Virus record (IMG/VR): IMGVR_UViG_2660238548_000027
Location: 1 to 20,335 of that record
DNA from: a virus
Lineage: Duplodnaviria > Heunggongvirae > Uroviricota > Caudoviricetes
Length of the DNA: 20,335 nucleotides
Direction: 5' to 3' (one strand)
In this document: positions 9,626 through 16,891 of the stretch, piece by piece
How positions within the stretch are numbered: the stretch's first letter is position 1
How the letters are laid out: every line of letters begins with the position of its first letter
Translations under genes and position numbers: made by a program
Notes under the pieces: model-generated
What the model was told of the DNA's origin: nothing
Seen by the model: the letters and a program-made list of their open reading frames with translations, nothing else
Databases searched by the model: none

Positions 9626-9973
9626 TTAGTGGCGGGAGAAATAGGACACACGGAAATAAGTTACCGTCATAATCAACCGTGTCGATATCGATACGGTTGA
9701 TGTTTCAATACTTTCGCGGATTTCAGGGCGGACTTTGTTAGGGCTGATGCTGTTCAACCAAGCTGCCAATTTTCGTAAAGCCATACAAATCATGGCTTGC
9801 ACCCCACCGGCAGAAGGTATGGTGATTTCCACCATACCCTTCGAGAAGCGTTGAGAAATCTTCTTATGTTGAGATTTCCAGTCTAGCCCCATTCCCTCAA
9901 CGATAGGTTTCATTGGGGTATATGGTTCGCCGTTGTGATTGACAACATAAAGCTCTGCGCCGTGGAATGGCAC
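9626..9973 (-). pseudogene. Probable remnant of an antirepressor-family gene (N-terminal DNA-binding-type domain only)
   Basis: Conserved-looking PFHGAELYVVNHNGEPY...IVEGMGLDW...GGVQAMICMALRKLAAWL, but no ATG (first start is GTG at 9973, frame open to 10033) and a low-complexity C-terminal tail, suggesting truncation. Confidence 0.4.
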
Positions 9974-10091: not shown

Positions 10092-10121
10092 TTGATTTTA
10101 ATATTTCTTAGCGCTTATCAT
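10092..10121 (+). promoter_or_regulatory. Candidate sigma70 promoter for leader RNA copy 1 (TTGATT-N18-TATCAT)
   Basis: -35 TTGATT 10092-10097, -10 TATCAT 10116-10121; copy 2 has TTGCAA-N17-TATATT at the equivalent position before the conserved TTACCTTTGCGG start. Confidence 0.35.
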
Positions 10122-10250
10122 TACCTTTGCGGTAAATTTACATCGCACTCCTCTTGTGCCATAGTAATCATGCACTGGCAAAATCCAGTGCCGGGATTGG
10201 TCTCCCGGATTACTAAGTGGCGCATACCACGCCAGACGTGGTTTTTTTTA
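10121..10250 (+). ncRNA. Structured leader/sRNA-like element, copy 1 (three-way junction plus terminator-like hairpin/T8)
   Basis: Outer stem TAGTAATC/GATTACTA (10162-10169/10208-10215) encloses hairpins CACTGG-CAAAAT-CCAGTG (10173-10190) and CCGGGA-TTGGTC-TCCCGG (10191-10208); then CCACG-CCAGA-CGTGG + T8 (10227-10249). Homologous copy on the minus strand at 13003-13135. Confidence 0.5.
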
Positions 10251-10407
10251 TGCGTATAGCACAGTCATGCCAGAATTATGGTGGGCTGAATGGGGGTCCG
10301 AAAGGACGCCGGTACCACTTAGGCCGGTAAGACCAACTCCGTTCAGTTCACCACCATCTGATTGGTCTCAGCGGTGGTGATGTAATTCGCTAAGTGGAGA
10401 CGCCATC
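10251..10407 (+). promoter_or_regulatory. Structured 5' leader of antirepressor 1 with co-varying pairing sites
   Basis: GAAA-tetraloop hairpin GTCC-GAAA-GGAC (10296-10307); AGACCAA (10330-10336) complementary to TTGGTCT (10362-10368) in the loop of hairpin CACCACC/GGTGGTG (10349-10379); SD GGAGA 10396-10400. Confidence 0.45.
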
Positions 10408-11064
10408 ATGAACGCTCAACTCATCCCCGTATTCAACGGCACTATATCTAACGAAACAGCCCTACTTTGTAATGCCCGCGATCTGCACGCTTTTTTAGGT
10501 GTTAAAAAGGTGTTTGCAGCATGGATTACAAATCGCATATCAGAATACGAATTCATTGAAAATCAAGACTATATTTTGCTTTCCAATTTGGGAAAGCAAA
10601 CATCTGGTAGAGGCGGCCACAACCGCAAAGAGTACCACCTCACCCTTGATACAGCCAAAGAGCTGGCGATGGTCGAGCGTAACGAAAAAGGTCGTCAGGT
10701 ACGACGCTACTTCATTGAATGCGAGAAACGTTTAAGACAACAAGAAACAAAAGTGGAGAAGGTCTTGTCAGGCTTCATGCCCGCCATTATGGAGGCGATC
10801 AAGCTGGAAGACAAAAAAGAATACAGCGCCCCACTGAAGCCCGGCTACCGCAGTTTGATTCACTCGCCGTCTGGTGTTCTCGGCCTGACGGAGAACTCAC
10901 TGCTGATGAATCTGCTGAACCAGTTACAGGAAGACGGGCACGACGTATCGGGCGCGGCGGCGGAGCTGACCACCATGTTCTGCTACATCGTCGGTGTGAG
11001 CAAATGCCTGCGTGATATCCAGACGCACGCGGAGTACATCAACGACAAGGCAGGGTTCTTCTGA
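10408..11064 (+). CDS. Antirepressor, AntA-type N-terminal domain plus shared C-terminal domain, 218 aa
   Basis: SD GGAGA 7 nt upstream; N-terminal pattern LIPVFNG...[10 protein letters not shown]...FAAWITNRI typical of AntA-type domains; C-terminal ~85 aa essentially identical to the C-terminus of the minus-strand gene at 12169-12858. Confidence 0.8.
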
Positions 11065-11087
11065 CGGGCGGCGGCACAGGGACGTGC
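10822..11087 (+). repeat. Inverted repeat arm A (3' coding region of antirepressor 1 plus ~23 nt past the stop)
   Basis: Reverse-complement match to 12146-12411; identical over the 84 nt compared (10981-11064 vs 12169-12252), with a few synonymous differences further 5'. Confidence 0.8.
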
Positions 11088-11113
11088 AAAACGAAACTAG
11101 CGTGACATGTCAC

Positions 11114-11138
11114 AGGCCGCTTTCGCGGCCTTGTTTTT
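11114..11138 (+). terminator. Intrinsic terminator after antirepressor 1
   Basis: AGGCCGC-TTTC-GCGGCCT hairpin followed by TGTTTTT. Confidence 0.6.
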
Positions 11139-11298
11139 AACGAATGCCACCGCCGCCCGGGCGGGAATCCGCAGAACGCCCACCGCAGCGGGAGCCGTCA
11201 GCAGCAGTGTCGCTGTCGTGCTGACAACGACCGGCAAAGGCCTGAGTTGAAGCTACCAGAGACAACAAAACGAACAGTGCAGCAAATGCTTTTTTCAT
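11137..11298 (-). CDS. Small secreted peptide, 53 aa (signal peptide + ~31-aa mature part with 2 Cys)
   Basis: Track ORF 11137..11370 trimmed to ATG 11298 (MKKAFAALFVLLSLVASTQAFA / GRCQHDSD...); the upstream part of the track ORF overlaps a promoter-like sequence. SD weak. Confidence 0.4.
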   Translation of the reverse strand: MKKAFAALFVLLSLVASTQAFAGRCQHDSDTAADGSRCGGRSADSRPGGGGIR

Positions 11299-11311
11299 TG
11301 TGAAATTTCCA

Positions 11312-11339
11312 TCTATAAGCCACCTCAATGTGGCGTCAA
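11312..11339 (-). promoter_or_regulatory. Candidate promoter for the small peptide gene (TTGACG-N16-TATAGA on minus strand)
   Basis: -35 = reverse complement of 11334-11339, -10 = reverse complement of 11312-11317. The -10 lacks the terminal T, so weak to moderate. Confidence 0.3.
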
Positions 11340-11370
11340 TGAGTGTAGCACTGACTTTTGTTTCGTCCAC

Positions 11371-11394
11371 AAAAAAGCCCGCGCTGCGGGCTTC
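11371..11394 (-). terminator. Intrinsic terminator directly after the 210-aa cargo gene
   Basis: Minus-strand reading: GCCCGC-CAGC-GCGGGC hairpin followed by TTTTTT (plus-strand A6 at 11371-11376). Confidence 0.6.
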
Positions 11395-11396
11395 TA

Positions 11397-12029
11397 TTAA
11401 TGCAGTTTATCTTTGCTTATAACCAGTAGTCTGTGGGTATGCACATCTTTATCACTGCCCCAACAGAAATCAGCCCACTGGCTATAGAAATCATCCCATG
11501 ATGTCATGAAGCTAAGAGGTCTATCTTCTTCAGAGCCATCTGAAACGTATACATTATATCCCGGGGTGTTTATAGCCCAAGAAATCATTCTTTCCCAGAA
11601 TCTTCTCCCATCGATTGTTTGTTGCTCATCAGATACAACGATCGCATATTGCTCTAGGAAGAACTGAAAAAAAATCTGAGGCAAACCATGAACAGCACGG
11701 TCATGAATAACATTAGGCGTACGCCATACCATGATCTGCGTACATGTTCTTTTGGCTTCGACGATATCTTCCCGAAAGATTAACTTAACCGCATACACCG
11801 TTTCTGGAGTATCGCTGGTAGTAATCATTCTGTAATGATCGCCATTACAAGATTTTACAAGGCGATAACCATAAGGTGTTGTGAATCCCGGAAGAACGAA
11901 ATCAACCACACCTTTCGCTAAGTAGCTTTCGGTGTGACTAGTGTTCTTCTCAGACATGTTCAGTTTTCTATCGAAATCTGCTTCTGGGATAATGTATGGC
12001 ATCGCTTTTCTTGTTGTATTTGTTCTCAT
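11397..12029 (-). CDS. Hypothetical cytoplasmic protein, 210 aa (cargo/moron gene of unknown function)
   Basis: Strong SD GGGAGGA 5 nt upstream of ATG (12029); own terminator; visibly lower GC than flanking phage genes; no TM or signal peptide; no motif recognised. Confidence 0.7.
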   Translation of the reverse strand: MRTNTTRKAMPYIIPEADFDRKLNMSEKNTSHTESYLAKGVVDFVLPGFTTPYGYRLVKSCNGDHYRMITTSDTPETVYAVKLIFREDIVEAKRTCTQIMVWRTPNVIHDRAVHGLPQIFFQFFLEQYAIVVSDEQQTIDGRRFWERMISWAINTPGYNVYVSDGSEEDRPLSFMTSWDDFYSQWADFCWGSDKDVHTHRLLVISKDKLH

Positions 12030-12145
12030 TTCGTCCTCCCATGTTTGGCTACAGGACGTGTTTTGAAGGGAAGATTAAAAATGCTTTCTTACCCTTGAGG
12101 TAATAGTACGCTATTCACCTGCAATCTGTACAGAATTATTTAAAG

Positions 12146-12411
12146 GCACATCCCTGTGCCACCGCCCGTCAGAAGAACCCTGCCTTGTCGTTGATGTACT
12201 CCGCGTGCGTCTGGATATCACGCAGGCATTTGCTCACACCGACGATGTAGCAGAACATGGTGGTCAGCTCCGCCGCCGCGCCCGATACGTCGTGCCCATC
12301 GTCCTGTAACTGGTTCAGCAGATTCATCAGCAGTGAGTTCTCCGTCAGGCCGAGAACACCAGACGGCGAGTGAATCAGGCTGCGGTAGCCTGGCTTCAGC
12401 GGGGCGCTGTA
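12146..12411 (-). repeat. Inverted repeat arm B (3' coding region of antirepressor 2)
   Basis: Reverse complement of 10822-11087 (see arm A). Confidence 0.8.
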
Positions 12412-12858
12412 GGTTTTGTTCTCTATCTTCATCGCCTTCATCACTGCTGACGCCGTGGCGTTGGCTACCTGGTCGGCAACCATCTTTATGCGTTCTTCCT
12501 GCGGGAGCGAGTTTTTAATGTAACTTCCGGTGCGGCGGATCTGAGGAAGAACCTCACCTGTAACCCATTTACGAAAGCGGTATGGGATAGTGCCTGGTGT
12601 CACCGCATCGCGGCAGCGGAGGATCAGTGTGTAGAGGCCTGACTCGTTGATAATATTGGTTTCGCCTTGACGGCCTAAGTTAAATTTAGCCCTTTCATCA
12701 TCATCAAGAGATTTTATTGACATAGTGGGGTTTGTCAGTTGAAGAGCTTTAATAACGTCTTTGGCAACAAACCAAGGATTTCCATCAATAACAATGGCTC
12801 GAATGGTTGCTTCTGATTCAAAATGAAAAACAGATGGGGTTACGTTAGCAGTCATAGT
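12169..12858 (-). CDS. Antirepressor, Bro-N-type N-terminal domain plus shared C-terminal domain, 229 aa
   Basis: SD AAGGTGA upstream of ATG 12858 (track ORF extends to 13008 through the leader; start reassigned to MTANV). Bro-N hallmarks GNPWFVAKDV and LDDDERAKFNLGRQGE; C-terminus matches gene 10408-11064. Confidence 0.8.
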   Translation of the reverse strand, partial: TMTANVTPSVFHFESEATIRAIVIDGNPWFVAKDVIKALQLTNPTMSIKSLDDDERAKFNLGRQGETNIINESGLYTLILRCRDAVTPGTIPYRFRKWVTGEVLPQIRRTGSYIKNSLPQEERIKMVADQVANATASAVMKAMKIENKTYSAPLKPGYRSLIHSPSGVLGLTENSLLMNLLNQLQDDGHDVSGAAAELTTMFCYIVGVSKCLRDIQTHAEYINDKAGFF

Positions 12859-13002
12859 GATCACCTTTGTAGTTAGGTTAATCACCACTACCGACGCCAA
12901 TCGGTTGGTGGTGAACTGTGCAGGGTTGGCGTAACCGGCTACAAAGGACCCGGCGCACCTTTCGGTGCCCCCACACAGCCCACCATAGAATAGGTGCGTT
13001 TT
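12859..13002 (-). promoter_or_regulatory. Structured 5' leader of antirepressor 2 (copy 2 of the co-varying leader)
   Basis: Minus-strand sense: GCACC-GAAA-GGTGC hairpin; ACGCCAA (plus 12918-12924) complementary to TTGGCGT (plus 12886-12892) inside a CACCAC/GTGGTG hairpin. Confidence 0.45.
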
Positions 13003-13135
13003 ACACATAAAAAAACCGCTTATGCGGCATATGTGCCTCTGTAGTAATCCGGGACGCCAATCCCGGCACTGGATTTTGCCAGTGCCCGATTACTATGGCA
13101 CAAGAGGAGTGCGATGTAAATTTACCGCAAAGGTA
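13003..13135 (-). ncRNA. Structured leader/sRNA-like element, copy 2
   Basis: Same three-way junction as copy 1, with hairpin B loop TTGGCG instead of TTGGTC; CCGC-ATAA-GCGG hairpin + T7; identical 5' 40-nt segment TTACCTTTGCGGTAAATTTACATCGCACTCCTCTTGTGCC. Confidence 0.5.
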
Positions 13136-13167
13136 AATATAAGCACTCCACTTGGTAATTGCAAACC

Positions 13168-13620: not shown

Positions 13621-15714
13621 ATGACGGTCTCAACCGAAGTTGACCACAACGAATACACCGGTAACGGTGTTACAACGACATTCCCTTATACCTTCAGGAT
13701 TTTCCAGAAATCTGATTTAGTAGTGCAGGTTGTTGACCTGAACGAGAACATCACAGAGCTGATTCTTGACACTGATTACATAGTTACTGGGGCTGGAGGA
13801 TACAATGGTGGCAATATAATTCTGTCGAAGGCATTGGTTAGCGGTTATCAGATTTCTATATCACGAGAGCTCCCGTTTACGCAGGAAACTGATTTGCGTA
13901 ATCAGGGGAAGTTCTTTGCAGAAGTGCATGAGGATGCTTTTGATAAGCTAACGATGCTGATCCAGCAGGTTCGAAGTTGGTTTAGCTTGGCGCTGCGTAA
14001 GCCGTCATTCGTGGCAAATTATTATGATGCGCTTAACAATTACATCAGAAACTTACGCGATCCTTCAACCCCCCAAGATGCAGCCACTAAAAATTATGTT
14101 GATACACAGCTCAGTTCTAACCTGGGGTGTACTTTGCGCGTTCAGGAGCAGATACCGCAACTTCCTGATGCTGCCTCCCGCGCAAACAAGATGCCTGCTT
14201 TCGATAACGATGGTAACCCTATTGTTGTGCTTCCTCCATCAGGGTCTGCGTCTGACGTATTGATCGAGCTAGCCAAGCCAACTGGATCTGACTTGGTTGG
14301 TTATGGGTCACAGACGGTTAAAGCAACCCTTGATAGCCTGAATAGCATGCGGGAGGAGCTTCTTGATAAAACAGGATTTAATGCGCTGGGGCGCTTCCTT
14401 AATCTTTCAGAGCTTCGCTCCTGTGTTCCGGAGGAGGCGGGGCAGATTGTATACGTAGCATCAGCAGCTAGCACTACACATGCTGAAAACCACCTTGGTG
14501 GCGGCTTTTTCGAGTCTGTTGATAACATTCAGGCGTGGGCTGATGATGGTGGAATTGTAATCAAGCCAGAAACTGGAACGATGGTATGGAGACGAATTAA
14601 TTTTACCACTTACGACATGCAATTTTGGGGGGTGAAACCTGACGGAGTCACAGATAACGCAACAGCTATAACTCTTGCAACTAACTTTGCTCGCTCAAAC
14701 AAATGCATTCTAGAGGCTCCTGCTGGAAACATAAATACATCAAAAACAATCCCAATTTATGACAATATGGGAATTAGAGGACAGGGAAAGGCTGAAGCGA
14801 CAGTTTTTTATAAAACAACAAATGACAAAATAGATCTCACAAAAAATGGAGAAGTAATTCTTCAGGTGGATGCATTATGTGCTTTTATACCAAAGCAATG
14901 GGATCTAACAGATAACTCAATGAGTTCATTTTGTGTTAACGGTAGAGTTGAAAACTGCATGTTTAGAAGGCTTGGCTTAACACAAGAAAATGTAGATTCT
15001 TATAGAAATTATTACGGACTGTTTTTAGGAAAATCAGCAGCACCAGTTATCAGACAGTCAATTTTTGAATGTGCTTATATCGGATGCTTCTCTTATGCGC
15101 CGTTCTCTGGCGTAATGGAAATGGTCGGTTTCCCACAATATCCAGGGAAAGGATATGCTGGAGTTTTGTTTGAAGATTTTAGGGATGGTCAAATAAAAGT
15201 AATTGGCACTTCTATGGATATGCGCCTTGTTCAAGTTAATGGTTATCAGTTGTCATTTAGAATGTCCGGGATGCAATATACTACCATGACCAATTGTACA
15301 GCTGAAAACTGCACGCCAATGGATGGGGAATCAACTTGCTACGCATTTGATTTTGTAAATCCGTATTGCATTGTCATGAATACTTGTGCAACAGAATTTG
15401 TTAAAGGGGGGCAATTGCGTGTTAGCGTTCAGGGAAACCCATCATTCCGCCCATCTATTATTGTCAATGGCTTTCTACCAATTGACCAACAAAGTCCAGT
15501 AGTGCAAACACCTATAATTGATATTGACAATGGTGGTGTTGTTGAAATGAGTGTCATATTGAATGGTGGTGATTGGGCAATAAATCCATCGGCTGTAAAT
15601 TTAACTTCTCCAAAAGCAAGTGGTAATGGGTTGAAGGTAAGATTGATCGGTGTAAATGGCTCTCCTTCTTCGGTGTGGAGTGCGTCTTCTGGTGCAGAAG
15701 TAAGGGAGTTCTAA
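13621..15714 (+). CDS. Tail fibre/tailspike, 697 aa (T7-type N-terminal adaptor region; C-terminal receptor-binding, possibly enzymatic, domain)
   Basis: SD GGAG upstream; N-terminal pattern YTGNGVTTTFPYTF...LILDTDYIV and DAATKNYVD motif resemble podovirus tail-fibre N-terminal domains; Gly/Asn-rich repetitive C-terminal part. Confidence 0.75.
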   Translation: MTVSTEVDHNEYTGNGVTTTFPYTFRIFQKSDLVVQVVDLNENITELILDTDYIVTGAGGYNGGNIILSKALVSGYQISISRELPFTQETDLRNQGKFFAEVHEDAFDKLTMLIQQVRSWFSLALRKPSFVANYYDALNNYIRNLRDPSTPQDAATKNYVDTQLSSNLGCTLRVQEQIPQLPDAASRANKMPAFDNDGNPIVVLPPSGSASDVLIELAKPTGSDLVGYGSQTVKATLDSLNSMREELLDKTGFNALGRFLNLSELRSCVPEEAGQIVYVASAASTTHAENHLGGGFFESVDNIQAWADDGGIVIKPETGTMVWRRINFTTYDMQFWGVKPDGVTDNATAITLATNFARSNKCILEAPAGNINTSKTIPIYDNMGIRGQGKAEATVFYKTTNDKIDLTKNGEVILQVDALCAFIPKQWDLTDNSMSSFCVNGRVENCMFRRLGLTQENVDSYRNYYGLFLGKSAAPVIRQSIFECAYIGCFSYAPFSGVMEMVGFPQYPGKGYAGVLFEDFRDGQIKVIGTSMDMRLVQVNGYQLSFRMSGMQYTTMTNCTAENCTPMDGESTCYAFDFVNPYCIVMNTCATEFVKGGQLRVSVQGNPSFRPSIIVNGFLPIDQQSPVVQTPIIDIDNGGVVEMSVILNGGDWAINPSAVNLTSPKASGNGLKVRLIGVNGSPSSVWSASSGAEVREF

Positions 15715-15784: not shown

Positions 15785-16891
15785 ATGAATAATAAAGGTA
15801 ATATAATTCAAAGTCTTACATCGTTGAGAATGTTTGCAGCTCTTGGTGTTTTTGTTAGTCACCTTGGGCTATTGTCTCAATCATCAATTGGTGTGTTTAA
15901 TACTGCGGCAAAGTATTTTTTTAATGGTTATATAGGTGTGACATTTTTCTACATTCTTTCTGGTTTTATTATAAACTATAGTTTCATAAATCATGTAAAA
16001 AAAGAAGCATTCAGCAATAAAGATTTTATTGTGTACAGAATAGCAAGAATATTTCCTGTGCATATTGTAGCTCTTCTTTGCTTTATTTTAATATTTATGC
16101 ATGGTAAGATGGGGGATGGTATTAGTAAGGAAATGCTTATTTCAAATGTGTTTCTGGTGCAGTCATTTATCCCAATTCAGGATTATTATTTTTCTTTTAA
16201 CTCCGTTTCATGGAGTATCTCATGTGAGATGTTTTTCTACGTTTCATTCTGCTTCTTAACAAGGCTAAAAACAAAATATTTAGCCTGTGTTCTGTTATTT
16301 GTTCTTGTGATTAATTTCTATTTCTTAATTAACCCGCCCATAACAATATCACAGCACTGGTTGTTTTATATAAACCCAGCATTTAGAATTGGTGATTTTA
16401 TTATAGGGATGATGCTCTGTAGAGTATTTATTAATACTAGTGCAAGACCTAACAATACTGTTTGCAGTATCATTGAAATTGCATCAATATTGTCATTGCT
16501 TTTGACAGTATATATAGCAACAAACTATATTACATATATGAATATAAAGTATGATGTTCTATATATTCCTTGCATGGCATTTATAGTTATTGCCTTTGCT
16601 TTTAATGGTGGGATATTATCTAAAATTCTTAAAAATAGATTTATGGTTTTGCTTGGCGAGGCTTCTTTTTCATTTTATATGTTTCACTGGATGATTATTC
16701 AAATAGTAACAAAAATATTGAGCGTAGAAAAAGACAACTTTATCGATATGTTGGTGTATGTTGTTTTATCTTTGTTTGTTTCTATTATTGCATCAATACT
16801 ATCATTCAAGTTGATAGAAATGCCAATAAATAAAACAATAAGAAGATGTTGGAAAAAATATAGGGGGATGCAGTCTGTCAGGAGTGCATGA
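15785..16891 (+). CDS. Integral-membrane acyltransferase-3 family protein, probable O-antigen acetylase (serotype conversion)
   Basis: N-terminal LTSLRMFAALGVFVSHL (R...H motif) and FFYILSGF motif; many TM segments; strongly AT-rich coding sequence compared with neighbours. Confidence 0.8.
   Translation: MNNKGNIIQSLTSLRMFAALGVFVSHLGLLSQSSIGVFNTAAKYFFNGYIGVTFFYILSGFIINYSFINHVKKEAFSNKDFIVYRIARIFPVHIVALLCFILIFMHGKMGDGISKEMLISNVFLVQSFIPIQDYYFSFNSVSWSISCEMFFYVSFCFLTRLKTKYLACVLLFVLVINFYFLINPPITISQHWLFYINPAFRIGDFIIGMMLCRVFINTSARPNNTVCSIIEIASILSLLLTVYIATNYITYMNIKYDVLYIPCMAFIVIAFAFNGGILSKILKNRFMVLLGEASFSFYMFHWMIIQIVTKILSVEKDNFIDMLVYVVLSLFVSIIASILSFKLIEMPINKTIRRCWKKYRGMQSVRSA

What the first reader, a model, noticed from the sequence alone, without database searches (positions are those of the whole stretch)
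11137..11339. Small signal-peptide peptide with two cysteines and a promoter-like sequence, downstream of the cargo gene
ATG at 11298 opens MKKAFAALFVLLSLVASTQAFA (classic signal peptide with AFA cleavage site) followed by a ~31-aa Gly/Ser/Asp-rich mature part with two Cys. A TTGACG-N16-TATAGA promoter-like sequence lies just upstream, between it and the terminator of the 210-aa gene. Small exported peptides in prophage islands are under-annotated and could be a partner (for example an immunity or modulator peptide) of the adjacent cargo protein. Caveat: the 3' end is GC-rich and overlaps the antirepressor terminator, so it could be a chance ORF.
Basis: seen in the sequence. Interest (0 to 1): 0.45.

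Follow-up and report, generated by a model that had tools for sequence, protein, structure and literature searches.

The report
Conserved small exported prophage peptide
This is a real, already catalogued 53-codon prophage gene for a tiny exported peptide with one likely disulfide loop; it belongs to a widespread but unstudied family and is a self-contained add-on gene, not a partner of the neighbouring cargo gene.

Summary
The ORF exists on the minus strand at 11298..11137: MKKAFAALFVLLSLVASTQAFA|GRCQHDSDTAADGSRCGGRSADSRPGGGGIR. It is not a chance ORF. Across 16 Enterobacterales loci, all 25 third codon positions of the core vary, against 10 first and 8 second positions (pN/pS 0.15). The signal peptide drifts but keeps its n/h/AxA layout.

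It is not under-annotated. It is 100% identical to RefSeq WP_000708858.1 and to phage TL-2011b gp43 ("transmembrane anchored protein"), matches PHROG 14503, and occurs in 459 of 5,426 complete E. coli genomes.

It is not tied to the 210-aa gene. Eighty viral loci with the identical peptide have at least 9 unrelated upstream and 12 unrelated downstream neighbours.

A conserved TAnnnT -10 (TACACT, 11347..11342) lies further upstream, followed by a covarying hairpin.

The mature part is a mini-domain, C-x4-D-x-A-x-DGSRCG-x-R-x4-RPGG. It is found in 934 protein clusters (Rhizobiales, cyanobacteria, Vibrio and others), alone or fused to membrane proteins. It has no Pfam family, solved structure or literature.

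Best reading: an autonomous moron encoding a roughly 3-kDa periplasmic peptide that acts on the cell envelope. Its function is unknown. Interest is modest.

The parts
11137..11298 (-). 53-codon ORF plus TAA stop, encoding the small exported pre-peptide
   Evidence: It is 100% identical to TL-2011b gp43 and to WP_000708858.1. It matches PHROG 14503 at E 2e-40.
11233..11298 (-). Signal peptide, codons 1-22 (MKKAFAALFVLLSLVASTQAFA); predicted SPase I cleavage after AFA
   Evidence: The sequence varies but the layout is conserved in 90 of 90 scorable homologues: small residue at -1 (A 63, G 23, S 4), and a hydrophobic window of mean Kyte-Doolittle 2.9. pN/pS is 0.37. Cleavage itself is inferred.
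11140..11232 (-). Mature 31-aa peptide GRCQHDSDTAADGSRCGGRSADSRPGGGGIR (3058 Da if oxidised), containing the C25-C38 loop and the DGSRCG..R....RPGG motif
   Evidence: C25, A32, G35, S36, C38, R41, G48 and G49 are invariant; D30, D34, R37, G39, R46 and P47 are at least 90% conserved in 92 sequences. pN/pS is 0.15 and all 25 wobble positions vary. Mass.
11306..11310 (-). Shine-Dalgarno-like GGAAA, 7 nt before the ATG
   Evidence: Read from the sequence. A purine-rich GG[AT]AA/AAGGA sits at the same place in relatives.
11319..11334 (-). Hairpin GCCAC-AUUGAG-GUGGC at the predicted 5' end of the mRNA (or a dyad operator in the DNA)
   Evidence: dG is -8.4 kcal/mol. A hairpin sits at the same place in 13 of 15 relatives. 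On 11 hand-picked hairpins, 96% of cells pair and 3 of 5 pairs change on both sides.
11342..11347 (-). Conserved -10 box TACACT (TAnnnT)
   Evidence: T22, A23 and T27 of alignment A4 are at least 90% conserved across 16 Enterobacterales loci. Promoter activity is inferred.
11364..11369 (-). -35-like TGGACG, 16 nt upstream of TACACT
   Evidence: It reads TGGATG or TTGGTA in relatives. The match to consensus is weak (4 of 6).
11312..11339 (-).
   Evidence: Present. Not called by the scan. Neither hexamer is conserved.
11371..11395 (-). Intrinsic terminator of the upstream 210-aa gene (10-bp stem plus U6). It insulates the peptide gene from upstream transcription
   Evidence: dG is -15.3 kcal/mol, z = -2.8.
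11114..11131 (.). GC-rich hairpin 5 nt after the peptide's stop codon. It also serves as the terminator of the convergent AntA-type gene (the T-tract is on the + strand)
   Evidence: An equivalent hairpin with a different sequence follows the stop codon in nearly all relatives.
11100..11393 (-). The conserved roughly 290-bp module (terminator hairpin, ORF, promoter region) that travels as a unit between variable neighbours
   Evidence: Phage matches begin at query positions 100-113 and end at 393-394 of query 11000-11450. Neighbour variation is shown.

Best explanation
The finding is an autonomous moron: a promoter, a 53-codon gene and a hairpin. It sits in the antirepressor/immunity region of a phiV10/TL-2011b-like podovirus prophage, between the internal-virion (ejection) protein genes and the tailspike gene.

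Shown:
- The reading frame is real and under purifying selection.
- It carries a conserved Sec-type signal peptide with an AxA site.
- Its last roughly 28 residues are a nearly invariant mini-domain with two invariant cysteines, C-x4-D-x-A-x-D-G-S-R-C-G-x-R-x4-R-P-G-G.
- The same mini-domain occurs in hundreds of protein clusters from Proteobacteria and cyanobacteria. It is always placed after a signal peptide or lipobox, or next to a predicted membrane helix. It occurs alone, in tandem, or fused to membrane-spanning proteins.
- The gene keeps no fixed neighbour.

Inferred:
- Transcription starts about 7 nt after the conserved TACACT, giving a roughly 37-nt leader that begins with a hairpin.
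- The pre-peptide is exported by Sec, cut after Ala22, and oxidised to a C25-C38 disulfide.
- The resulting 3.06-kDa basic peptide stays in the periplasm of the lysogen.

Most likely mode of action (speculative): it works alone, without a dedicated helper, by binding a broadly conserved envelope component at the outer face of the inner membrane or in the periplasm. For the prophage copy this would most plausibly give a lysogenic-conversion or superinfection-exclusion effect. The confidence of 0.6 is for the anatomy and localisation taken together. For the exclusion/conversion role alone I would say about 0.25.
For: - Frame and identity.
- Selection: pN/pS is 0.15 in the core and 0.37 in the signal peptide. 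Third positions vary at 25 of 25 codons, against 10 first and 8 second positions.
- Conservation: 8 invariant and 8 near-invariant positions in 92 sequences. All 90 scorable sequences have exactly two Cys in the mature part and a small residue at -1.
- Family size: 57, then 934 clusters at 90% identity; 619 representatives at 50% identity; 57 species in the genome collection, from Enterobacterales to Mesorhizobium, Nostoc, Vibrio and Bacteriovorax.
- Extracytoplasmic placement in fusion proteins.
- No fixed neighbour.
- Own transcription signals: conserved TAnnnT, covarying hairpin, a terminator upstream and a hairpin downstream.
- Composition unlike its surroundings: GC is 0.70 in the mature part, against 0.46 for the window and 0.41 for the cargo gene.
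- Absent from the related phage phiV10, as expected for an accessory gene.
- Position in the phage genome.
Against: - There are no expression, export or phenotype data. No paper mentions the family.
- The conserved promoter is weak (8 of 12 to consensus). In this window the hairpin after the stop codon has no U-tract on the peptide's strand.
- The AlphaFold model is only moderately confident (mean pLDDT 76) and has no structural neighbour.
- Nothing links the peptide to phage exclusion specifically. Many homologues sit among ordinary chromosomal genes with no sign of a prophage, so the family's primary role may be unrelated to phages.
- Cleavage of the signal peptide cannot be told from a signal anchor by computation.
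Confidence: 0.6

Rival explanations
1. The signal peptide is not cleaved, and the product is a small inner-membrane-anchored protein with a roughly 30-residue periplasmic tail. It would modulate a membrane sensor or transporter, in the manner of MgrB on PhoQ. This is what the database name 'transmembrane anchored protein' implies.
For: - The N-terminal helix is predicted with high confidence (H2-16).
- In the fusion proteins the mini-domain is tethered to the membrane by an adjacent helix or a lipobox, so it can work at the membrane surface.
- From my own knowledge: MgrB is also about 47 aa, with an N-terminal helix and two essential periplasmic cysteines.
Against: - A small residue at -1 and a permitted residue at -3 are kept in 90 of 90 homologues, while the helix sequence drifts. 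That is the pattern of a cleaved signal peptide.
- The Pfam scan of 92 members returned no MgrB family, and only one weak hit to the unrelated small-protein family MgtS-like (E 0.077).
- The hydrophobic core of 13 residues is short for a stable membrane span.
Confidence: 0.15
2. The disulfide loop is a minimal metal-binding (Ca2+) loop related to the Excalibur / DxDxDG type. The peptide would act as a metal-binding or metal-dependent module.
For: From my own recollection of the Excalibur motif, DRASDGSRCG lines up in register with DRDGDGIACE (D, R, D, G and C shared). Acidic residues D30 and D34 are conserved. This is a lead from memory, not a test.
Against: - No hit to Excalibur or any other Pfam family for the window protein at E up to 1. 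Excalibur is not among the families listed for the 92 homologues at E up to 10.
- The third ligand position of DxDxDG is an invariant alanine (A32), and the glutamate after the Cys is a glycine.
- The Cys-Cys spacing is 12 residues, against about 30 in Excalibur (from memory).
Confidence: 0.1
3. One reading: the peptide is a dedicated partner (immunity, chaperone or modulator) of the adjacent 210-aa cargo protein.
For: The two genes are adjacent on the same strand in this window and in 71 E. coli genomes.
Against: - The identical peptide is found next to at least 9 unrelated upstream genes and different ones in TL-2011b, BUCT711 and ST512-KPC3phi13.3.
- A strong terminator separates the two genes.
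- The 210-aa gene belongs to a different family (PHROG 1349) of very different GC content.
- Homologues outside phages have no recurrent neighbour.
Confidence: 0.03
4. It is a chance ORF inside a conserved non-coding module (a bidirectional terminator, an sRNA or a recombination site).
For: - The roughly 290-bp module is conserved as DNA and bounded by hairpins.
- The mature part is GC-rich.
- An antisense frame also looks conserved.
Against: - Substitutions concentrate at third codon positions and pN/pS is 0.15.
- The protein is recognisable at 42-60% identity in Rhizobiales and cyanobacteria, where the DNA is unrelated.
- There is no Rfam match in 11088-12145.
- The antisense frame shares its wobble positions with the sense frame and has no conserved start codon.
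Confidence: 0.02
5. It is a type I toxin of the Hok kind: a small membrane-damaging peptide held in check by an antisense RNA, here possibly read-through from the convergent antirepressor gene.
For: The size is about 50 aa, the N-terminus is hydrophobic, the gene is on a mobile element, and it faces convergent transcription.
Against: - The conserved part is the hydrophilic tail, not the helix.
- An AxA cleavage site is conserved.
- The leader is short.
- The same domain is fused as an extracytoplasmic module to larger proteins.
- No antisense RNA family was detected here.
Confidence: 0.03

Closest known systems
NCBI 'transmembrane anchored protein' / PHROG 14503 ('membrane associated protein', moron category) / PHROG 3117
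   Same: It is this family. The window protein is 100% identical to WP_000708858.1 and to TL-2011b YP_007001994.1, and matches PHROG 14503 over its full length at E 2e-40.
   Different: Nothing differs in sequence. The family name is only a topology guess. There is no Pfam or NCBIfam model, no solved structure and no publication.
Morons of temperate phages (promoter-gene-terminator units inserted between conserved phage genes; described for HK97 and lambda-like phages; from my own knowledge)
   Same: - It is a self-contained unit with its own -10 box and flanking hairpins.
- Its base composition is atypical.
- It is present or absent among related phages.
- It lies in a region where neighbours are swapped freely.
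   Different: Here the small gene is the constant element and the larger 'cargo' genes around it are the variable ones. Expression from the repressed prophage has not been shown.
Periplasm- or membrane-acting superinfection-exclusion proteins (T4 Spackle and Imm, P22 SieA; from my own knowledge)
   Same: It is phage-encoded and exported to the envelope. Like P22 sieA, it lies in the immunity/antirepressor region between the ejection-protein genes and the tailspike gene.
   Different: There is no sequence relation: the only trace is one of 92 homologues touching the Spackle Pfam at E 0.14. It is far smaller. Homologues are common in bacterial chromosomes without phage context. No exclusion phenotype has been tested.
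MgrB-type small membrane regulators of sensor kinases (from my own knowledge)
   Same: Similar size, an N-terminal hydrophobic helix, and two conserved periplasmic cysteines about 10-13 residues apart.
   Different: No sequence similarity. A conserved AxA site argues for cleavage. The distribution is much broader than Enterobacterales.
Excalibur calcium-binding domain (Pfam PF05901; motif recalled from memory)
   Same: A secreted, disulfide-containing small domain with a D-R-x-x-D-G-x-x-C string in the same register.
   Different: No hit to Excalibur. The middle acidic ligand is replaced by an invariant Ala, and the loop is much shorter.

Membership tests
PHROG 14503 / NCBI 'transmembrane anchored protein' | Full-length match to the family profile, or identity to named members | tested here: met
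   E 2.3e-40 over residues 1-53 of 53. 100% identical to TL-2011b gp43 and WP_000708858.1. Homologues carry this name.
Sec / signal peptidase I substrate | Positive n-region, hydrophobic h-region of about 10-15 residues, small residues at -3 and -1 | tested here: met
   MKK / AFAALFVLLSLVA / AFA in the window. Kept in 90 of 90 scorable homologues. A22 is at least 90% conserved.
Sec / signal peptidase I substrate | Actual export and cleavage | not testable with these tools
   Needs PhoA or Bla fusions and mass spectrometry.
Bacterial lipoprotein (SPase II substrate) | Lipobox [LVI][ASTVI][GAS]C, with Cys as the first mature residue | tested here: not met
   The residues before C25 are A-G-R in the window and A-G-N in most relatives. 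Some distant members and fusion proteins do carry lipobox-like strings, such as TGCSSG.
Moron | Own promoter | tested here: inconclusive
   A conserved TAnnnT box with a weak -35. No transcript data.
Moron | Own terminator, and insulation from flanking transcription | tested here: met
   An upstream terminator at -15.3 kcal/mol with U6, and a downstream hairpin at -17.9 kcal/mol. A hairpin follows the stop codon in nearly all relatives. In this window there is no U-tract on the peptide's strand.
Moron | Present or absent among otherwise related phages; atypical composition | tested here: met
   phiV10 lacks it, while TL-2011b, phiv142-3, HEMP4 and EC.W1-9 have it. GC is 0.58-0.70 against 0.46 for the window.
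Dedicated partner of the adjacent 210-aa cargo (toxin-immunity-like pair) | Conserved gene pairing across genomes | tested here: not met
   At least 9 unrelated upstream neighbours for the identical peptide. Different neighbours. 71 against 459 E. coli genomes.
Excalibur (PF05901) | Match to the Pfam profile; DxDxDG with three acidic ligands | tested here: not met
   No hit for the window protein at E up to 1. Not among the families listed for 92 members at E up to 10. Position 3 is an invariant Ala.
T4 Spackle (PF25676) / MgrB-type small proteins | Match to the Pfam profile | tested here: not met
   Spackle: 1 of 92 members at E 0.14. The MgrB family was not returned; one member gave a weak hit to the unrelated MgtS-like family (E 0.077). 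All of this is noise driven by the signal peptide.
Known anti-phage defence systems (PADLOC) | Match to any PADLOC model, for the peptide or its neighbours | tested here: not met
   No families for the peptide, the 210-aa gene, either antirepressor or two flanking ORFs.
Type I toxin (Hok-like) | Conserved membrane helix as the active part; cis-antisense RNA | tested here: not met
   The helix is variable and the tail is conserved. No antisense RNA family in the region. Toxicity was not tested.

The most novel reading that the evidence does not exclude
The 25-residue core (C-x4-D-x-A-x-DGSRCG-x-R-x4-RPGG) is an undescribed, autonomous extracytoplasmic mini-domain that recognises one universal envelope ligand or enzyme of diderm bacteria. 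Bacteria use it free, lipid-anchored, in tandem, or as the outside sensor of single-pass membrane proteins. A lineage of enterobacterial podoviruses has captured the free form as a constant moron that alters the lysogen's envelope or blocks superinfecting phages.
Probability: 0.25. Interest if true: 0.6.

Novelty: already known. Interest (0 to 1): 0.3.

Why it matters
The gene itself is already catalogued, so its existence is not news. Two things would matter if followed up.

1. A prophage gene carried by about 8% of complete E. coli genomes encodes a peptide small enough to synthesise chemically. That makes its target easy to look for.
2. The same 25-residue motif occurs in over 600 clusters at 50% identity across distant phyla. 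It is the best-conserved part of a family of membrane proteins, yet it has no Pfam entry, no solved structure and no paper.

Finding what it binds would annotate all of these at once. It could also reveal a new way for a prophage to modify its host's envelope.

Tried and rejected
- Pfam, NCBIfam and PADLOC scans of the peptide found nothing. A Pfam scan of 92 homologues at E up to 10 gave only signal-peptide noise.
- A sequence-profile search of the PDB gave 0 hits at E up to 10.
- AlphaFold on a 92-sequence alignment gave mean pLDDT 76: a signal helix plus a small loop with one beta-bridge. Foldseek against the PDB gave 0 matches.
- To get at function through fused domains, I scanned ten fusion proteins with Pfam and found nothing above threshold. 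I looked up the genomic context of one (P0193) and found only metagenomic contigs of small unannotated genes. I modelled the roughly 230-aa fusion family. Its cytoplasmic helical domain is predicted at pLDDT above 92 but has no PDB neighbour (best E 1.6).
- Guilt by association outside enterics failed. Clustering found no recurrent neighbour. No Pfam family occurred more than twice among 126 neighbouring ORFs.
- Literature searches for the motif string, the family name, the RefSeq accession and phage TL-2011b found nothing about this protein.
- Rfam found no RNA family over the peptide gene.
- The terminator scan missed the clear terminator at 11371-11395. I checked it by folding instead.
- The 77-codon GTG-start version (11370, as in PHROG 3117) is rejected. 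The extension is not conserved and runs through the terminator and promoter.
- The antisense ORF at 11144-11224 is rejected. Its apparent conservation follows from wobble positions shared with the sense frame, and its start codon is not conserved.

Full report
WHAT IS THERE. It encodes MKKAFAALFVLLSLVASTQAFAGRCQHDSDTAADGSRCGGRSADSRPGGGGIR. The first 22 residues have the layout of a Sec signal peptide: MKK, a 13-residue hydrophobic core, and AFA at -3/-1. The remaining 31 residues are polar and rich in Gly, Arg, Asp and Ser, with exactly two cysteines (C25, C38). If the signal peptide is cleaved and the cysteines oxidised, the product weighs 3058 Da with pI 8.1.

IS IT REAL? An ORF of this length is no evidence by itself: the same 3.5 kb holds 54 ORFs of at least 25 codons. 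Comparison with other genomes settles the question.
- The identical protein is annotated in E. coli RefSeq genomes (WP_000708858.1) and in phage TL-2011b (gp43, 'putative transmembrane anchored protein').
- Klebsiella phages whose DNA is only about 70% identical here encode the same mature sequence with two or three changes.
- In 16 Enterobacterales loci, all 25 third codon positions of the core vary, against 10 first and 8 second positions. Mean pS is 0.71 and pN 0.105 (pN/pS 0.15). The signal peptide is looser (pN/pS 0.37).
- In 92 diverse homologues, C25, A32, G35, S36, C38, R41, G48 and G49 are invariant. D30, D34, R37, G39, R46 and P47 are at least 90% conserved.
- Of those 92, 90 could be scored. 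All 90 have exactly two Cys in the mature part, a small residue at -1 and a hydrophobic core. The median mature length is 28 residues.
- An antisense frame (ORF 11144-11224, +) also looks conserved. It shares its wobble positions with the sense frame and has no conserved start codon, so it is a mirror effect.
- The 77-codon GTG-start version is not supported, because the extension is not conserved.

IT IS ALREADY CATALOGUED. The protein matches PHROG 14503 ('membrane associated protein', moron category) at E 2e-40. The gene with its promoter region occurs in 459 of 5,426 complete E. coli genomes, and it carries a CDS annotation in all of the 23 full-length records listed. It has no Pfam or NCBIfam model, no PADLOC model, no relative in the PDB by sequence, and no mention in the searchable literature.

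IT IS NOT A PARTNER OF THE 210-aa GENE. The gene just upstream differs between phages: the 210-aa protein here, a YafO-family toxin in TL-2011b, a DUF2335 protein in BUCT711, and a 132-aa protein in ST512-KPC3phi13.3. Among 80 viral contigs that encode the identical peptide there are at least 9 unrelated upstream and 12 unrelated downstream neighbour families. Only 71 E. coli genomes match the stretch that reaches into the 210-aa gene. A strong terminator (11371-11395; -15.3 kcal/mol; U6) separates the two genes. So the small gene is the constant element, and the 'cargo' genes around it are the variable ones. The conserved unit is about 290 bp, 11100-11393.

TRANSCRIPTION SIGNALS.
Neither hexamer is conserved: they read TAAAGC/TGAAGC and TACACA in relatives.
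- What is conserved across 16 loci is a TAnnnT box about 45 nt before the ATG. Here it is TACACT (11347..11342), and it reads TACAAT in Klebsiella. A weak -35 (TGGACG, 11369..11364) lies 16 nt upstream.
- A start site about 7 nt after this box would put a hairpin, GCCAC-N6-GUGGC (11334..11319, -8.4 kcal/mol), at the very 5' end of a roughly 37-nt leader.
- A hairpin sits at this place in 13 of 15 relatives, with different stems. On 11 of them, 96% of cells pair, 3 of 5 pairs change on both sides, and no shuffle reaches the covariation score.
- I picked and trimmed those 11 sequences myself, so this is supportive rather than decisive. A DNA operator with dyad symmetry would look the same.
- A GC-rich hairpin follows the stop codon in nearly all relatives, with different sequences. 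In this window it is shared with the convergent AntA-type gene, and the U-tract is on that gene's strand only.
- GC content is 0.70 in the mature part, against 0.46 for the window and 0.41 for the 210-aa gene.
- Taken together, this is the anatomy of a moron.

GENOMIC SETTING. The window is a phiV10/TL-2011b-like podovirus prophage. In order, it holds a tail protein, internal virion (ejection) proteins including one with an endolysin domain, the antirepressor region, the tailspike (13621-15714), an O-acetyltransferase, and a holin. The peptide gene and the 210-aa gene lie between two convergent antirepressor genes: an AntA-type gene at 10408-11064 (+) and a Bro-N-type gene at 12169-13008 (-). 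These two genes share a 279-nt inverted repeat. Each is preceded by an isrK / C4 antisense-RNA leader of the P1 immI kind. From my own knowledge, this is the position that the immI region with sieA occupies in P22.

THE WIDER FAMILY.
- A pattern scan of one genome per species found the motif in 57 species. Besides Enterobacterales, these include Mesorhizobium, Rhizobium, Bradyrhizobium, Devosia, Methylobacterium, Agrobacterium, Nostoc, Dolichospermum, Vibrio, Bacteriovorax, Rhodoferax and a Polyangiaceae genome.
- A profile search found 934 clusters at 90% identity and 619 representatives at 50% identity.
- The consensus is: signal peptide, then C-x4-D-[RT]-A-[AS]-D-G-S-R-C-G-x-R-[AS]-[AS]-x-x-R-P-G-G-x, then the end of the protein.
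- Outside enteric phages there is no recurrent neighbour. The surroundings are a mixture of housekeeping and mobile genes. The peptide therefore needs no dedicated partner, modifying enzyme or exporter.
- Many representatives are longer proteins: tandem copies; the motif followed by a PPPEY linker and an unknown roughly 120-aa domain; the motif at the C-terminus after a predicted membrane helix; and a roughly 230-aa family.
- That 230-aa family consists of a signal peptide or lipobox, the motif, RNPDTDW, a predicted transmembrane helix, a disordered linker and a helical cytoplasmic domain. The motif is its most conserved part.
- In every architecture the motif lies on the outer side of the membrane. 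This supports a periplasmic location for the phage peptide and suggests a binding or sensing module.
- The fused domains have no Pfam match and no structural neighbour, so they give no functional handle.

MECHANISM: SHOWN AND INFERRED. Shown: a selected reading frame, a conserved signal-peptide layout, two invariant cysteines, an invariant polar motif, autonomy from neighbouring genes, and extracytoplasmic placement in the fusion proteins. Inferred: Sec export, cleavage after Ala22, a C25-C38 disulfide, residence in the periplasm, and expression from its own weak sigma-70 promoter in the lysogen. Speculative: the peptide binds a broadly conserved envelope component, and the prophage copy gives lysogenic conversion or superinfection exclusion. 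I put this last step at about 0.25. The main alternatives are an uncleaved, membrane-anchored small regulator of the MgrB kind (0.15) and a metal-binding loop resembling Excalibur (0.1). The D-R-x-x-D-G-x-x-C register matches Excalibur from memory, but the profile does not hit and the middle ligand position is an invariant Ala. A dedicated partnership with the 210-aa gene, a chance ORF and a type I toxin are each at or below 0.03.

VERDICT. The gene is already known as a catalogued but uncharacterised family. The only mildly new point is how widespread and strictly conserved the 25-residue motif is, and that it also serves as the outer module of membrane proteins. Interest: 0.3.

Noticed in passing
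window 10159-10358 (+) and 12904-13098 (-): There are two inverted copies of a P1-type immI leader, one in front of each antirepressor gene. Each consists of isrK (68-77 bits), the c4-a1b1 target sites and C4 antisense RNA (61-80 bits). The prophage therefore carries two convergent antirepressor units controlled by C4 RNA.
   Followed up: partly
window 10809-11087 and 12146-12424: A 279-nt inverted repeat, 95% complementary, encodes the shared C-terminal domain of the AntA-type and Bro-N-type antirepressors. It brackets the 1,058-bp segment that holds the peptide gene and the 210-aa gene. Further inverted repeats (10110-10381 / 12881-13147) cover the two leaders. Homologous recombination could invert or exchange the central segment.
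   Followed up: partly
window 11102-11113: A perfect 12-bp palindrome, GTGACATGTCAC, abuts the shared terminator hairpin. The same palindrome occurs at the same place in L003, L088, L089 and L097 (Klebsiella, Kluyvera, Buttiauxella). Its function is unknown: it could be a protein-binding site or a module boundary.
   Followed up: no
window 11397-12029 (-): The 210-aa 'cargo' gene matches only PHROG 1349 (unknown function). It has no Pfam, PADLOC or PDB relative, its GC content is 0.41, and it is followed by its own strong terminator. It is one of at least nine alternative genes found at this position.
   Followed up: partly
window 11144-11224 (+): An antisense ORF, MPPPPGRESAERPPQREPSAAVSLSC, looks as conserved as the peptide. 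Its third codon positions coincide with those of the sense frame and it has no conserved start codon. It is an example of mirror conservation that could mislead a frame-conservation test.
   Followed up: yes
proteins P0163, P0166, P0188-P0193, P0198, P0200, P0208, P0213, P0226 (metagenomic); loci L142-L145: A family of roughly 230-aa single-pass membrane proteins has the same mini-domain outside the membrane. Inside is a helical domain of about 100 aa, predicted at pLDDT above 92, with conserved GGNxYDAA and LNxxR motifs. It has no Pfam match and no PDB structural neighbour.
   Followed up: partly
window 9626-9973 (-): This is a truncated N-terminal fragment of an Ant-type antirepressor (115 aa; PHROG 524 and 14366). 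The closest E. coli genome annotates it as an incomplete pseudogene. It looks like a remnant of earlier recombination in this region.
   Followed up: no
window 15785-16891 (+): An O-acetyltransferase gene (PHROG 3333, E 1e-86) lies directly after the tailspike gene. It is a likely O-antigen-modifying conversion gene, as is known for phiV10 (from my own knowledge).
   Followed up: no
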